A stretch of DNA of 64,000 nucleotides. Origin: a virus. Taxonomy: Duplodnaviria; Caudoviricetes. The stretch covers positions 564-64,563 of the IMG/VR virus record IMGVR_UViG_3300044648_000098; one strand, written 5' to 3'. The position numbers and the translations under genes were made by a program. This document shows, in pieces, positions 22,097 through 26,398 of the stretch. The notes under the pieces were generated by a model. It was not told the origin of the DNA. It ran no database searches and saw nothing but the letters and a program-made list of their open reading frames with translations. The stretch's first letter is position 1, and every line of letters begins with the position of its first letter.

Positions 22097-22729
22097 TCAG
22101 TCCGGGAGGTTGGCGGCGATCTCCGCGAGTACGTCAGCCGCCGACACCGAGGTGTTCGCGCCCGCCGTGGTTTCGAGTCCGTACGCCTCGCGCTCCAGAC
22201 CCACCAGCACCTTGATGCTGTCGGCCAGCGCCTTCATCGTCTTGGTCCGCTCCGGCAGGCTGATGACCGCCCGGTACACGTCATTCAGCTTGTCCACGCC
22301 CTTGTCGTTCTCGGAGCGCAGCAGTTCGCCGAGGCCCTCGAGCCCCGGCACGTTCGCCGTCTGCTCTTCCAGCTCAGCCAGCAGCGTCATGCACAGCCGG
22401 CGGGCCCTGGCGATGTCGACGCGGTGGTTGCTGCGCACCTCGGCAATCACCTGGGCGTTCGCCTCGATGATGACCCGCTCGGTCACTGCGGTTGCCGCGG
22501 CAACTGACTTGGCAACTTCACGCTTGGCAACCAGGGCGTCCGCCCTCGCCTGCACCTTCGCTTTCAGGTCGCGTTCCCAGCCTTCTGCCTTGGCGCGCTT
22601 CTGGATCGCGGTATGGGAGATGCCAGCCGTGGCGGCGATCTCTCGCACCGAGAGAACCCCTGCCCTGTAGTCGCGCTCGATGCGCTCCCAATCCGCGGCG
22701 GTGCGCGCTGGCTTCGTGTCCTTGGTCAT
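22097..22729 (-). CDS. terS: Terminase small subunit
   Basis: DWERIERDYRAGVLSVREIA HTH, LEREAYGL; precedes terL. Confidence 0.85.
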   Translation of the reverse strand: MTKDTKPARTAADWERIERDYRAGVLSVREIAATAGISHTAIQKRAKAEGWERDLKAKVQARADALVAKREVAKSVAAATAVTERVIIEANAQVIAEVRSNHRVDIARARRLCMTLLAELEEQTANVPGLEGLGELLRSENDKGVDKLNDVYRAVISLPERTKTMKALADSIKVLVGLEREAYGLETTAGANTSVSAADVLAEIAANLPD

Positions 22730-22912
22730 GGTGTCCCGCCTCCCGCGGTGGGGTTGCTCCCCTTACAGGCTCACGCCTTGCGGCGCAGGGGAGCCGCTGG
22801 AGCGCCCTTGCCCGATCAGCACGAACGGGGCGCGTCTTGTCGTCGTGAGGAATACCCGCCGCTTACCCCCGGCGGGGCCGCTTCGGACTGCGGGGCATGA
22901 GGGGAATCGCTC

Positions 22913-22988
22913 TGGAGCGGCGCGAGGGAATCGAACCCTTCTCTGCTCAGCTTGGAAGGCTGGCGGGTGAGCCCGTCACCTGCACCGC
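22913..22988 (-). tRNA. tRNA-Gly(TCC), non-canonical D arm
   Basis: GCGGTGC/GCGCCGC acceptor stem, CTTCCAA anticodon loop, GGTTCGATTCC T arm, T73 plus encoded CCA. Confidence 0.8.
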
Positions 22989-23098
22989 GTGTTCTTCGGA
23001 TCTCGATGTAGCCTGCGAGCAGCAGGTACGCCACCAGCAGGACTGCGCCCACCAGGGCGTTGAGGACTGCTTCTGCCAGGCTCATCGAGCCCCTTTCG

Positions 23099-23478
23099 TT
23101 TGGTACTGGTTACGCCATCCAGTGGTATTTCACCCGCTGCCGGATTCGCCCATCCCGGGCGGTACGGCCAAATTGTCTGTCGCCGCCACCGCCGTCGAGC
23201 CGAGGGGCGGTGTCACGGGCTGGGCCCTAGAACGGCGACGATGGTGGCCGGGCGCTGATCTCCGGCTTGCGTGGGGATTACCGGGTTATTGCTCCACGCT
23301 ACATAGGACGCCATAGCGATTGCTCGCCGCACCGCTCCATTCGCGCAGTCAGCACCTGCGCATTCACCATCACGGCTGCGGGACGGGCGCACCGGCCGGG
23401 AACTCCCAACCGACCGACCCGCATGCGTGATGGCCCGGGCCTTTCAGCCCAGCTGCCCCTCTACGCTCGGGGTGGCGT
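23099..23478 (-). ncRNA. Cluster of abutting structured RNA elements
   Basis: Consecutive closed stems visible by eye (CATCACG/CGTGATG; GATGGTG/CACCATC; GTCGCCG/CGGCGAC; TTTGG/CCAAA); no convincing ORF on the late strand. Confidence 0.65.
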
Positions 23479-23481
23479 TTC

Positions 23482-23658
23482 CTATCGCGGCTGGGGCTCC
23501 TGCCGCTCGTACCCCGGCTGGATGGCCTCGGCCTCCTCACGGGTGTGGAACTGCATCGTGCCCTTGGTGACAGCGCCTGACTGCCACTCGGTCTGCACCT
23601 CGACCTTGAACAAGCCGAAGCGCTCGTAGACCGGGCTGAGCACCGCGATGATCTTCAT
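23482..23658 (-). CDS. Small hypothetical protein
   Basis: GAGG RBS, MKIIAVLSP start. Confidence 0.55.
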   Translation of the reverse strand: MKIIAVLSPVYERFGLFKVEVQTEWQSGAVTKGTMQFHTREEAEAIQPGYERQEPQPR

Positions 23659-23665
23659 GGCAGCC

Positions 23666-23812
23666 TCAGCGGCGCGGCTGGGCCGGCGCGCCGTTCGCGC
23701 GCTTGGCGTTGTCCAGCGCCTCGACCTCTCGGCCGTGCAGCGCAACGTGCTTCATCGTCATGGAGTCGTACGTGACCCAGACGCCATTGATCCATCGGGC
23801 GAGGTAGCGCAT
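23666..23812 (-). CDS. Small hypothetical protein
   Basis: GGAG RBS, MRYLARWING start. Confidence 0.5.
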   Translation of the reverse strand: MRYLARWINGVWVTYDSMTMKHVALHGREVEALDNAKRANGAPAQPRR

Positions 23813-25047: not shown

Positions 25048-25320
25048 TCAATTCTTCACAGTGGGCGTTTTCAGGTGTTCGGCCGCTGAAACTAACGCAT
25101 CCGTGGCCTGCCGGAGGCGCGCGTTGAAGTAGCGGCGCAGCAGGTACTGGCGCACGAAACTGACCAGCGTGAAGCAAAGCCCGATGCGGATGTCGGCGCT
25201 AAGGGGGATGTGCACCCCTTCCATCGGGAAGATCACGATCTGCGCGCCGAGGGCGACGAAGTAGCCGATGAGGATGTTGACGGAGGCCTCGATGATGGAG
25301 CCCATGCGGGTCTGGCTCAT
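25048..25320 (-). CDS. Small membrane protein (DUF7220-like)
   Basis: SQTRMGSIIEASVNILIGY...RQYLLRRYFN. Confidence 0.7.
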   Translation of the reverse strand: MSQTRMGSIIEASVNILIGYFVALGAQIVIFPMEGVHIPLSADIRIGLCFTLVSFVRQYLLRRYFNARLRQATDALVSAAEHLKTPTVKN

Positions 25321-25940
25321 GCGGCCTCCACCCGGTACTCCACAACGCTGCTCCACTGCATCCATCCGGCGGGGCCACGCATCTCGCTTCCATCGATCCG
25401 CTTGGCCGTCACGAGACGCTCGGGCTCGACAGCTGGACGACCATAGCCACCCCACCTGATCCAGCCGTCGTCATTGGCCGCCGCGTCCTCGGCCGCCTGG
25501 GCGGGCGTGTCGGCGATGGTGTAGTGGTGCGGATTCTTGTCGGCGTAGCGGGCGCGGATCTGAGGCATGAGCGCCTCGAAGGAGGCTCGCAGCTTCGCCA
25601 GCTCGGGCGATCGGCTCGGCGGCCGGTCGTCGATCAGCCCGCCGGAATGCTTGGCCTCGATGAGGATGTTCAGGCAGCACAGCGCGTTCGCCAGGTGGGG
25701 CGTCCCGTCGACCGGGTCGATCTCCTCCCCTTCCCACCACGCATCGACATGGCGGTCGAGCGCTGACCGGTAGATCGACGCCCGGGCTCCAGCCGCCCGG
25801 TAGTTCCAGGCCCCGTACTTCACATTGCCCAGGAAGTGCGCGATCGCCTGGTATGCCTTCACGATTGGCGACACCAGATGCAACGGCAGCTTGTTGGTCG
25901 CGATCGCGTCCTTTGGGTTCGTGTCCTTGGTTTCGCTCAT
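25317..25940 (-). CDS. dATP/dGTP diphosphohydrolase (DUF5664 family)
   Basis: NPKDAIATNKLPLHL, KYGAWNYR, GEEIDPVDGTPHLANALCCL. Confidence 0.85.
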   Translation of the reverse strand: MSETKDTNPKDAIATNKLPLHLVSPIVKAYQAIAHFLGNVKYGAWNYRAAGARASIYRSALDRHVDAWWEGEEIDPVDGTPHLANALCCLNILIEAKHSGGLIDDRPPSRSPELAKLRASFEALMPQIRARYADKNPHHYTIADTPAQAAEDAAANDDGWIRWGGYGRPAVEPERLVTAKRIDGSEMRGPAGWMQWSSVVEYRVEAA

Positions 25941-26398
25941 GGCAGCACCCGGTAGGCGACGATGTCGTATGGAAGTGGAAACGCTCCGGTAGCCCAGGCG
26001 ATCACCTCCGGCTTGTTGAATCTGAAGGCCTCGCCGTTCCGACACCGAACCTCAACTCGCGTCCCGGCCGCCACAGGTTGAATGCCTCCATCGAATTCGA
26101 TCCACTCCCGCTCGGGCGGGGATGGTTCCTGAGCGGCGCACGATTCTGCGGCCGCCTCGATGGCCTCCCGATAGACATTCGTTCCTGCGTTGACCTCGGT
26201 CGTGATGGTCTGCGTCACCGGCGCGCTCACCGCCTTCGCGGCAGGGTGCGCCATGTCGCGTGCGTCGAAGCACTCGCCCTTGAACTCGGTTGCGGGCCGG
26301 CGCATCAGCGCGGGCGGCTTGGCCTTCGCCGCGGCGGGCATGCCGTCGGCGATCATCTGGGCGTTGGGCAGCCAGCCCATGCGGCAGTTGTGGGTCAT
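25937..26398 (-). CDS. Hypothetical protein with WIEFDGG...DIVAYR C-terminal domain
   Basis: Common small phage domain motif. Confidence 0.6.
   Translation of the reverse strand: MTHNCRMGWLPNAQMIADGMPAAAKAKPPALMRRPATEFKGECFDARDMAHPAAKAVSAPVTQTITTEVNAGTNVYREAIEAAAESCAAQEPSPPEREWIEFDGGIQPVAAGTRVEVRCRNGEAFRFNKPEVIAWATGAFPLPYDIVAYRVLP

What the first reader, a model, noticed from the sequence alone, without database searches (positions are those of the whole stretch)
23240..23371. tRNA-shaped RNA whose D-loop/T-loop contact is replaced by a 7-bp kissing loop
Seen on the minus strand: closing stem GATGGTG/CACCATC (7 bp, acceptor-like); AAT linker; hairpin GCGCAG-[GTGCTGA]-CTGCGC in the D-arm position; two internal hairpins (AGCGGT/ATCGCT and GCGTGG/CCACGC); and hairpin GCCGG-[AGATCAGCGC]-CCGGC stacked directly on the 3' closing strand like a T arm. 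Loop GTGCTGA is complementary to TCAGCGC in the other loop (6 Watson-Crick pairs plus 1 G-U). The 5' GATG is shared with the 3' strand of the upstream hairpin, so the two folds partly compete. Inference: an L-shaped tRNA-mimic scaffold carrying a variable middle cargo, possibly an RNase P substrate. I recall similar text in other proteobacterial prophages but cannot name a family.
Basis: partly seen in the sequence, partly recalled or inferred. Interest (0 to 1): 0.75.

Follow-up and report, generated by a model that had tools for sequence, protein, structure and literature searches.

The report
Widespread phage RNA with kissing loops
This stretch is one copy of a common but unnamed small folded RNA of bacterial viruses: a nearly invariant two-hairpin frame whose loops pair with each other, carrying a different insert in almost every virus.

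Summary
Window 23240-23371 (minus strand) is one member of a large family of phage elements that no library here names. Rfam 15 gave no match.

The frame is about 55 nt and nearly invariant: a 7-bp closing stem, an AAU linker, a 5-6-bp hairpin with loop (G)GCUGA, then AA, then a 5-bp hairpin with loop AGAUCAGCR joined directly to the 3' closing strand. It encloses an insert of 10-173 nt that falls into 77 sequence clusters among 118 copies.

The exact 25-nt 3' half occurs in at least 120 IMG/VR contigs and 33 bacterial species genomes. The frame matches 121 GenBank phage records.

All three stems covary. The loop-loop pairing shows four independent compensatory events.

The element lies on the strand of nearby tRNAs (19 of 118 loci, none opposite). 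It usually sits at the start of the late operon.

The tRNA-mimic reading is only partly supported. There is no T-loop or D-loop signature, and a 3-nt linker can hardly span a coaxial kissing helix. Pairing between molecules is as likely as pairing within one. Function is unknown.

The parts
23365..23371 (-). 5' strand of the closing stem (GATGGTG)
   Evidence: Read. In the family the outer three pairs covary (for example UA 44 / GC 33 / AU 9 at one pair) and the inner GGUG/CACC is nearly invariant.
23362..23364 (-). AAU linker between the closing stem and hairpin 1
   Evidence: Nearly invariant in alignment A2. A few copies have 4 nt or other letters.
23343..23361 (-). Hairpin 1: 6-bp stem GCGCAG/CTGCGC with 7-nt loop GTGCTGA (the usual family form is a 5-bp stem with loop GGCTGA)
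   Evidence: Four of 5 stem pairs show changes on both sides across the family, and 99% of cells are paired.
23269..23342 (-). 74-nt insert ('cargo') with two hairpins, shared only with Pararheinheimera phage KLER1-1
   Evidence: 79% identity to KLER1-1 over the element, with compensatory changes in the inner hairpin. Elsewhere the insert is unrelated: 10-173 nt, 77 clusters among 118.
23267..23268 (-). AA before hairpin 4
   Evidence: Invariant in A2, but part of the pattern used to collect most rows.
23247..23266 (-). Hairpin 4: stem GCCGG/CCGGC with 10-nt loop AGATCAGCGC (usual form 9 nt), joined to the 3' closing strand without a spacer
   Evidence: The stem covaries in copies found without fixing it: GCAGG/CCTGC in KLER1-1 and L112:237-363, GCCAG/CTGGC in L048:393-502. 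Loop bases 23258-23252 pair with loop 1 bases 23355-23349.
23240..23246 (-). 3' strand of the closing stem (CACCATC)
   Evidence: The covariance model R1 scores window 23233-23378(-) at 73.7 bits, E 2.7e-16, and this is the only copy in the window.
23366..23434 (-). Upstream hairpin whose 3' strand overlaps the 5' closing strand (alternative pairing)
   Evidence: Seen in the minimum-energy fold of the 396-nt gap. A comparable upstream complement exists in part of the family: a 12-of-12 match in 8 of 69 copies, and about 10 more with 7-9-nt matches in or near the same register (my reading of the list).
23086..23481 (-). 396-nt gap without a convincing gene that holds the element, upstream of a tRNA-like gene and the terminase genes
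   Evidence: ORF list and family scans. The only ORFs over the element are short. The family's inserts differ in length by non-multiples of three.
22913..22988 (-). tRNA-Gly(UCC)-like gene about 250 nt downstream on the same strand (context)
   Evidence: ARAGORN call. Rfam gives only a sub-threshold tRNA-clan match: 25.1 bits, E 0.024.

Best explanation
The stretch is a gene, or a module of a leader transcript, for a small structured RNA of a large and so far unnamed family. The family is carried by phages and prophages of Gamma- and Betaproteobacteria.

Shown:
- The frame is a closing stem, an AAU linker, hairpin 1 with loop (G)GCUGA, the insert, AA, and hairpin 4 with loop AGAUCAGCR abutting the 3' closing strand.
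- All three stems and the loop-loop helix are maintained by compensatory change.
- The insert is replaced wholesale between phages.
- The element lies on the strand of adjacent tRNAs and of downstream terminators. It is typically found between Q-type antiterminator genes and lysis or terminase genes, or inside tRNA arrays.

Inferred:
- It is transcribed with the late leader or the tRNA array and trimmed to a stable RNA by the enzymes that separate tRNAs. The closing stem stacked on hairpin 4 gives an acceptor/T-like helix of 12 bp or more.
- The conserved frame is the working core. The insert is a tolerated or displayed expansion.
- The two loops pair either between two molecules (head-to-tail dimer or chain) or only in a conformer in which the closing stem is open. 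The 3-nt linker can hardly reach across a stacked hairpin-kiss-hairpin helix.
- The biological role is not known. My best guess is a self-associating scaffold RNA that engages a conserved host component, because the primary sequence of the frame is kept across host classes.
For: Family size:
- It occurs in 33 species-representative genomes, Enterobacterales to Burkholderiales. All 33 have the 5' half.
- The frame matches 121 GenBank phage records.
- One insert type is present in 107 of 5426 complete E. coli genomes.

Structure:
- On 63 diverse copies, 94.5% of cells are paired against 88.4% in shuffles. Eleven pairs change on both sides, and 0 of 500 shuffles reach that.
- On 106 copies, 95.0% are paired, 15 pairs change on both sides, and slid controls give 25-51% paired.

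Loop-loop pairing, four independent compensated events:
- Joint loss of the central U:A pair (GCGA with UCGC) in L048:393-502.
- U-A to C-G through U.G intermediates in L138/L144/L145.
- C-G to A-U in L153.
- G-C to C-G in L158.
- In addition, 6-7-bp extended forms occur in the window and 6 other copies.

Strand and context:
- 19 of 118 loci have a tRNA within 1 kb on the same strand and none on the opposite strand. Five are within 20 nt, one of them inside the insert.
- 37 of 100 unique copies have a terminator-like hairpin with a T-run within 110 nt downstream.
- In KLER1-1 the element runs against its neighbours and is followed by two same-strand terminators.
- Downstream ORFs are enriched for terminase large subunit, endolysin and holin. 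Upstream ORFs are enriched for Q-like antiterminators.

Not a known family: no Rfam match at the curated thresholds, and none for the element up to E 10 other than weak partial chance matches.
Against: - Transcription, processing and stability are all inferred.
- Folding energy of the window copy is not better than shuffles.
- G-U cells outnumber A-C cells only 25 to 14 in the helices, so base-pair asymmetry supports the strand only weakly.
- Several lineages carry an uncompensated mismatch in the loop-loop helix: UCUGC in 5 sequences of one lineage, UCAAC in 4, GGCUCA in 2, UAAGC in 1, GACUGA in 2.
- Most copies were collected with a pattern that fixes hairpin 4 and its loop. Conservation of that half is therefore partly by construction.
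- The argument for pairing between molecules is geometric reasoning, not a computation or measurement.
- No antisense target for the window's insert was found in its own genome: the best match was 14 nt, and 6 of 200 shuffles did as well.
- No function is demonstrated.
Confidence: 0.55

Rival explanations
1. A monomeric, L-shaped tRNA mimic in which an intramolecular 5-7-bp kiss replaces the D-loop/T-loop contact. RNase P cuts it at the 5' end of the closing stem, and it carries a variable cargo in place of the anticodon arm.
For: - The order of the parts is tRNA-like: closing stem, short linker, hairpin, variable middle, then a 5-bp hairpin with no spacer to the 3' strand.
- The three pairs outside the near-invariant GGUG/CACC covary, and the 8th and 9th pairs are much weaker.
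- Copies sit in tRNA arrays at tRNA-like spacing of 2-9 nt.
- After the maximal stem, 10 of 72 copies read NCCA and 10 more read CCA at once.
- E. coli RNase P is known to cut hairpin-like phage RNAs that lack a T loop (passages read in PMC5499578, and PMC11143913).
Against: - ARAGORN and the Rfam tRNA-clan models do not report the element, even at E up to 10.
- There is no canonical T-loop or D-loop signature in the two loops.
- Maximal stem length is 7 bp in only 25 of 72 copies.
- The flanks are A/C-rich, so the CCA excess is weak evidence. The window copy has no CCA.
- Geometry (inference): loop 1 is fully or almost fully paired, as in coaxial kissing complexes. The base of hairpin 1 would then lie about 39-48 A from the base of hairpin 4, and only AAU bridges that distance.
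- In ROOL and GOLLD, loop pairings first read from covariation as tertiary contacts proved to be between molecules (passages in 10.1101/2024.12.08.627333).
Confidence: 0.2
2. A cis-acting switch in the late-operon leader. The upstream hairpin and the closing stem compete for the same bases, and the choice controls termination, processing or stability of the late transcript.
For: - The alternative pairing is seen in the window and in part of the family.
- The position is typical: between Q-like antiterminators and lysis or terminase genes, often just before a terminator.
Against: - The upstream competitor is absent from most copies: a 12-of-12 match in 8 of 69, about 18 of 69 by a looser reading.
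- The element also lies inside tRNA arrays of lytic phages, for example ZC03.
- In KLER1-1 it is a separate unit running against its neighbours, with its own terminators.
- A leader switch does not explain the invariant complementary loops.
Confidence: 0.15
3. A DNA-level element, not an RNA: a small mobile element with inverted ends, or a recombination site read as folded single-stranded DNA.
For: - The two halves of the frame are imperfect inverted repeats.
- The frame is nearly identical in unrelated phage types, which suggests horizontal spread.
Against: - The variable bases flanking the conserved core are reverse complements of each other, not direct repeats, so they look like a stem rather than a target-site duplication.
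- The element is strictly co-oriented with tRNAs, 19 to 0, and with downstream terminators.
- No recombinase or transposase is a regular neighbour.
Confidence: 0.04
4. A new self-cleaving ribozyme whose core is the conserved frame and whose insert is a variable peripheral stem.
For: - It has a conserved core with a variable-length optional domain, a pseudoknot-like loop pairing, and conserved unpaired A-rich linkers.
- It is phage-borne and sits next to tRNAs.
Against: - There is no match to any ribozyme family in Rfam.
- The order of helices does not fit the hammerhead or HDV-like folds (my inspection, not a computation).
- Nothing points to a cleavage site.
Confidence: 0.03

Closest known systems
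Phage T4 RNAC and RNAD (small stable RNAs of the T4 tRNA region)
   Same: They are small RNAs transcribed from a phage tRNA region, and their biological roles are unknown (passage read in PMC3014915).
   Different: No sequence or model comparison was made here. That they have tRNA-like ends is recalled, not checked. The present family has a fixed two-hairpin frame with pairing loops and a hypervariable insert, and it also occurs far from tRNAs in late leaders.
Hairpin-like RNase P substrates of phages: P1/P7 C4 RNA, P4 CI RNA, phi80 M3 RNA
   Same: They are phage small RNAs without a T loop that bacterial RNase P processes (passages in PMC5499578 and PMC11143913). The present element offers a comparable stacked helix and, in some copies, a 3' NCCA.
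   Different: No Rfam family gave a match over the element apart from weak partial chance matches, so the C4 model did not either. The phi80 genome holds no copy of this family. Those RNAs act as antisense regulators with defined targets, whereas no target was found for the window's insert.
phi29 prohead RNA (pRNA)
   Same: It is a phage RNA whose loops pair between identical molecules to build multimers (abstract of PMC4201828, seen in the listing). The present frame also has two mutually complementary, covarying loops that are hard to pair within one folded molecule.
   Different: There is no Rfam match to pRNA. It occurs in Proteobacteria phages of many types, some well studied (HK620). A packaging role is not indicated. 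The position varies between late leader and tRNA arrays.
GOLLD and ROOL RNAs
   Same: They are phage- or prophage-associated and linked to tRNA arrays, and their function is unknown. Kissing loops first found by covariation turned out to be bridges between molecules in RNA-only assemblies (passages and a reference title in 10.1101/2024.12.08.627333).
   Different: Those are RNAs of several hundred nucleotides with conserved ornate folds. This one has a conserved core of about 55 nt and a non-conserved insert. There is no Rfam match.
StxS-type leader RNAs of lambdoid prophages
   Same: In HK620-type prophages the element lies between the annotated pR'/qut and the late terminator tQ. A short transcript made in lysogens would therefore contain it, as described for the Shiga-toxin phage late promoter (abstract of PMC7547250, listing).
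   Different: StxS is an Hfq-type base-pairing sRNA of one phage group (recalled). This family is defined by a structured frame and is also found in lytic phages.

Membership tests
tRNA / tRNA clan (Rfam CL00001) | Recognised by tRNA gene finders and covariance models | tested here: not met
   ARAGORN reports only 22913-22988 in the window. cmscan up to E 10 over 22600-23800 gives no tRNA-clan match on the element. In L003-L005 only the neighbouring true tRNAs match.
tRNA / tRNA clan (Rfam CL00001) | 7-bp acceptor stem stacked on a 5-bp T stem without a spacer | tested here: inconclusive
   The 5-bp hairpin abuts the 3' strand in all copies. Seven pairs are well supported, but the maximal stem is 7 bp in 25, 8 bp in 23, 9 bp in 10 and other lengths in 14 of 72 copies.
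tRNA / tRNA clan (Rfam CL00001) | Canonical T-loop and D-loop nucleotides, and an anticodon arm | tested here: not met
   The loops are (G)GCUGA and AGAUCAGCR. The middle is hypervariable: 10-173 nt, with no shared motif among 77 clusters.
tRNA / tRNA clan (Rfam CL00001) | 3' NCCA after the acceptor stem | tested here: not met
   The window reads GTCG after the stem. In the family, NCCA follows the maximal stem in 10 of 72 copies and CCA follows at once in 10 more, in A/C-rich flanks.
RNase P hairpin-like substrates (C4 / CI / M3 type) | Cleavage by RNase P at the 5' end of the helix | not testable with these tools
The stacked helix of 12 bp or more is present.
C4 antisense RNA family (Rfam) | Match to the family's covariance model | tested here: not met
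   No family matched in the window at the curated threshold, and the E up to 10 list holds no C4 match.
phi29-type pRNA | Two loops of one RNA that are mutually complementary and covary | tested here: met
   Four compensated events, plus extended 6-7-bp forms.
phi29-type pRNA | The pairing is between molecules; the RNA binds the portal and is needed for packaging; it matches the Rfam model | tested here: not met
   There is no Rfam match. Pairing in trans and portal binding are not testable here. The variable genomic position argues against a packaging part.
GOLLD / ROOL | Match to the Rfam models; large conserved ornate fold | tested here: not met
   There is no match. The conserved part is only about 55 nt.
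Protein-coding gene (as annotated in KLER1-1, gp76, opposite strand) | An open frame kept across homologues | tested here: not met
   The window has no single ORF spanning the part that corresponds to gp76. Inserts differ in length by non-multiples of 3. PHROGs and Pfam find nothing for the neighbouring short ORFs.

The most novel reading that the evidence does not exclude
The frame is a natural self-assembling RNA brick. This would be an RNA-only quaternary assembly, in the manner of pRNA, ROOL and GOLLD but with a core of about 55 nt. It would be made by very many phages of Proteobacteria from their late leaders and tRNA arrays. The competing upstream hairpin would gate assembly by holding the closing stem open or shut.
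Probability: 0.3. Interest if true: 0.9.

Novelty: categorically new. Interest (0 to 1): 0.8.

Why it matters
If this holds, a structured RNA present in hundreds of sequenced phages and prophages has gone unannotated. The hosts include E. coli, Klebsiella, Salmonella, Pseudomonas and many Betaproteobacteria. In GenBank the element sits under "none" or under short hypothetical proteins.

Its frame is kept letter for letter across phage types that share no genes. That points to a conserved host partner or to an RNA-RNA function.

It would add a small and experimentally easy case to two open questions: what the orphan stable RNAs of phage tRNA regions do, and how common RNA-only assemblies are.

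The frame is also a ready-made natural scaffold that tolerates inserts of 10 to more than 170 nt.

It would also improve annotation, because several records call spurious ORFs over it.

Tried and rejected
- **Insert patterns.** Patterns built from the window/KLER1-1 insert found nothing in IMG/VR. That insert type is rare, and I moved to the frame.
- **Plasmids.** No match.
- **Blast of the KLER1-1 copy.** It gave only short chance-level hits, such as P1 plp.
- **Antisense regulator of its own phage.** The longest complement of the window's insert elsewhere in the window is 14 nt, and 6 of 200 shuffles did as well. Not supported.
- **phi80 M3 RNA as the same thing.** The phi80 record has no match to model R1. 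The 1976 paper is not held.
- **Pas sRNAs and P22 sncRNAs.** I read passages and found nothing that matches this frame.
- **Literal frame sequences in papers.** No paper contains them.
- **Keyword searches.** Searches found no description of the family.
- **The catalogue of 10,006 candidate structured RNAs from IMG/VR (PMC10690425).** I saw only main-text passages. It may list this motif in its supplements, which I could not see, so "not in print" rests on those searches only.
- **Hammerhead and HDV-like folds.** Rejected by inspection of the helix order.
- **Protein-coding reading.** Rejected (see the membership test).
- **Relatives search.** I used 'handles' instead.
- **Rejected search term.** One search failed on a term with an apostrophe. 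I sent different searches afterwards.
- **Not attempted.** No structure or complex prediction was run, because the tools take proteins.
- **First hand-in.** One search was turned back because one field (the confidence of the best explanation) was missing.
Full report
**What is in the window.**

- a 7-bp closing stem and an AAT linker;
- a 6-bp hairpin with a 7-nt loop;
- a 74-nt middle part;
- AA, then a 5-bp hairpin with a 10-nt loop that abuts the 3' closing strand.

The two loops are complementary over 7 positions. The stretch lies in a 396-nt gap (23086-23481) between two short unassigned ORFs. Downstream on the same strand lie a tRNA-Gly(UCC)-like gene (22913-22988), the small and large terminase subunits, and the portal gene.

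The window is nearly the whole of a 64.5-kb virus record with terminal repeats.

By energy alone the fold is unremarkable: z = -1.24, and the opposite strand folds about as well. In the fold of the whole gap, an upstream hairpin takes 6 bases of the 5' closing strand.

**It belongs to a large family.**

- A sensitive blastn of the gap against GenBank phages hit only Pararheinheimera phage KLER1-1. Identity was 79% over just the element, with compensatory changes in the closing stem, both frame hairpins and an insert hairpin.
- Blastn of the 132 nt at a loose threshold then showed the 3' hairpin in unannotated DNA of HK620, Klebsiella and Salmonella phages, and the N4-like Pseudomonas phage ZC03.
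- Reading those places showed the same frame around unrelated middles.
- It also occurs in 33 species-representative bacterial genomes. These include Enterobacterales, Halomonas, Moraxellaceae and many Burkholderiales, plus a few bins of other phyla that may be mis-binned. All 33 carry the 5' half.
- A short-insert copy matches 121 GenBank phage records: Klebsiella 57, Escherichia 30, and others. The features under the matches are "none", "hypothetical protein" or, in a few, an unannotated record.
- The HK620 version is in 107 of 5426 complete E. coli genomes, and the 15 listed rows have no annotated feature there.

**Anatomy of the family.**

Of the 123 loci then in hand (120 from IMG/VR plus three GenBank phages), 118 gave a parsable element, and 100 of those are unique. 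Three of the other five are cut by a contig end. Two have a divergent 5' half that the covariance model found later.

- The 5' half is letter-identical in 80 of the 118.
- Inserts run from 10 to 173 nt, median 72.
- They fall into 77 clusters with no shared 6-mer of note.
- Some inserts are themselves nested modules. One holds an ARAGORN-called tRNA-Pro (L048), and another holds a T-arm-like stretch (L108).

**Secondary structure.**

On 63 diverse copies (one per insert cluster with an insert of 95 nt or less, plus the window and KLER1-1):
- the three stems and the loop helix give 94.5% paired cells against 88.4% in column shuffles;
- 11 pairs change on both sides, which 0 of 500 shuffles reach;
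- slid controls give 25-52% paired.

The three pairs outside the conserved GGUG/CACC switch freely among UA, GC and AU. Hairpin 1 shows double changes at 4 of 5 pairs.

I built a covariance model (R1). It scores the window copy at 73.7 bits (E 2.7e-16) and finds no second copy in the window. It also found extra, more divergent copies in other loci.

On 106 model-aligned copies, 95.0% of cells are paired and 15 pairs have double changes. These include 3 in hairpin 4, which the search pattern had fixed in most rows. That alignment is fitted to the nested stems but not to the loop-loop pairs.

**The loop-loop pairing.**

Scans that forced a change at each of three central loop-4 positions returned only 21, 5 and 7 loci. 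One of these, L160, is cut before loop 1.

Four lineages carry a matching change in loop 1:

| Lineage | Change |
|---|---|
| L138/L144/L145 | GCCGA with UCGGC; sister lineages hold the U.G intermediate |
| L153 | GAUGA with UCAUC |
| L158 | GCUCA with UGAGC |
| L048:393-502 | central U:A pair lost from both loops (GCGA with UCGC) |

Seven copies, the window among them, have a 7-nt loop 1 that lengthens the helix to 6-7 bp.

Single changes that keep a wobble pair are common: UCGGC in 11 sequences, UUAGC in 4, UCAGU in 1.

Several lineages argue the other way, with an uncompensated internal or terminal mismatch:
- UCUGC: 5 sequences of one lineage, which also has a closing-stem mismatch;
- UCAAC: 4 sequences;
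- GGCUCA: 2 sequences;
- UAAGC: 1 sequence;
- GACUGA: 2 sequences.

In the 118 copies with the standard loop 4, the loop-1 pentamer is altered only in L018 and L119, plus L023 where it sits in an enlarged loop.

**Strand and context.**

- A tRNA lies within 1 kb on the same strand in 19 of 118 loci and on the opposite strand in none.
- In five loci the tRNA is within 20 nt, once inside the insert.
- By a crude rule of my own, 37 of 100 unique copies have a hairpin plus T-run within 110 nt downstream.
- In HK620 the element lies between the annotated pR'/qut and the late terminator tQ.
- In KLER1-1 it runs against all its neighbours and is followed by two same-strand terminators. There it looks like an independent small gene, and the hypothetical gp76 drawn over it on the other strand is probably spurious.

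I took the longest same-strand ORF near each of the 77 cluster representatives, chosen mechanically, and scanned them against PHROGs:
- The 67 downstream ORFs most often hit terminase large subunit (7, 3 and 2 members in three families), endolysin (6, 5, 5 and 4, in overlapping families), holin (3), ParB-like nucleases and DNA methyltransferases.
- The 56 upstream ORFs most often hit Q-like antiterminators (4, 2, 2, 2 and 2).

The usual site is therefore the head of the late operon, which fits the window. G-U cells outnumber A-C cells only 25 to 14, so the strand call rests mainly on context.

**What it is not.**

- Rfam 15 finds nothing in the window at the curated thresholds.
- Up to E 10 it finds nothing for the element other than weak partial chance matches (ssNA-helicase; rydB in the HK620 copy).
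- In three other carriers it finds only true tRNAs.
- ARAGORN does not call the element.
- It is not coding: no frame is kept.
- phi80, whose M3 RNA is a classic non-tRNA substrate of RNase P, has no copy.

**How it most likely works.**

Shown: a conserved folded frame, pairing loops, co-orientation with tRNAs and terminators, and wholesale turnover of the insert.

Inferred:
1. It is made as part of the late leader or a tRNA array and is cut out like its tRNA neighbours. The closing stem stacked on hairpin 4 offers a helix of 12 bp or more, and 20 of 72 copies have CCA within 4 nt of the stem end. That excess is weak, because the flanks are A/C-rich.
2. The frame is the working part. Its letters, not only its pairs, are kept across phages of Gamma- and Betaproteobacteria that share no genes, which suggests a conserved host partner or an RNA-RNA function. 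The insert may be a tolerated expansion that only needs to fold on itself. That would also explain compensatory change inside the window/KLER1-1 insert.
3. The loops probably do not kiss inside a molecule whose closing stem is shut.
   - Loop 1 has 5 of 6 bases (in the window 7 of 7) in the helix, as in coaxial kissing complexes.
   - The stacked hairpin 4, kiss and hairpin 1 would then be 15-18 bp, about 39-48 A at 2.8 A per pair.
   - The closing stem is fused to one end, and only AAU leads to the other end.
   - This is reasoning from standard A-form geometry, not a computation.
   - It leaves two options. One is pairing between molecules: a head-to-tail dimer closes neatly on paper. The other is pairing in a conformer where the upstream hairpin holds the closing strand. 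Such a competitor exists in the window and, by a 12-of-12 match, in 8 of 69 copies, and about 18 of 69 by a looser reading.
   - There is a precedent. In ROOL and GOLLD, loop pairings first inferred from covariation proved to be bridges between molecules.

**Novelty and limits.**

I found no name for this family in Rfam, in GenBank annotation or in the searchable literature. It may sit unnamed in the supplement of a catalogue of 10,006 candidate viral RNAs, which I could not open.

Three limits apply:
- Most copies were gathered with a pattern that fixes the 3' half, so the diversity of that half is under-sampled.
- Rows are related, so cell counts overstate the number of independent events. 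I therefore count lineages for the loop pairs.

Function remains a guess.

Noticed in passing
window 22913-22988 (-), inside ORF 22816-23085 (-): A tRNA-Gly(UCC)-like gene with a 7-bp acceptor stem, a good T arm and an encoded CCA, but an odd D arm. ARAGORN calls it, while Rfam gives only a sub-threshold tRNA-clan hit. It overlaps an 89-aa ORF whose first ~35 residues look like a small membrane peptide, so the ORF's 3' half is probably not coding. Another carrier (L025) has a tRNA-Gly(UCC) 3 nt after its element.
   Followed up: partly
window 23395-23405 (-) and L001:2974-2984 (+): An 11-nt block (CGGTTGGGAGT) about 25-35 nt upstream of the element is identical in the window and in KLER1-1, although the rest of the upstream flank differs. 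In the window it sits in the loop region of the upstream hairpin. Its meaning is unknown.
   Followed up: no
L003:1330-1435, L005:1310-1400, L015 and L112 downstream of their elements: Enterobacterial late leaders carry a second frame-plus-variable-middle module (GGTAAGAGCAYT ... AGTGCTCTTWCC) directly upstream of the element. In L015 and L112 the two module types alternate in tandem, like units of an array.
   Followed up: partly
L048:518-749, L055, L117, L108: Some inserts are nested. A shared outer layer encloses a further variable core, which in L048 is an ARAGORN-called tRNA-Pro and in L108 contains a T-arm-like stretch.
   Followed up: no
L001:2951-3172 (KLER1-1 gp76, OM654378): The annotated hypothetical protein gp76 lies on the strand opposite the element and covers it. 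With same-strand terminators right after the element, this CDS is probably a mis-annotation.
   Followed up: partly
window 25317-26045 (-): This ORF carries the N-terminal domain of dATP/dGTP diphosphohydrolases (PF18909, E 9.8e-22; also phrog_801). The domain is recalled to accompany modified-base (2-aminoadenine) DNA pathways in phages. I did not look for the partner genes.
   Followed up: no
L152, L155, L156 (two copies each); L048 (two copies): Where a phage has two copies, their loops sometimes differ. In L048 one copy has the standard loops and the other has the shortened, mutually matching pair. In L152/L155/L156 one copy has a loop 4 that no longer matches. This could bear on whether copies pair with each other.
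   Followed up: no
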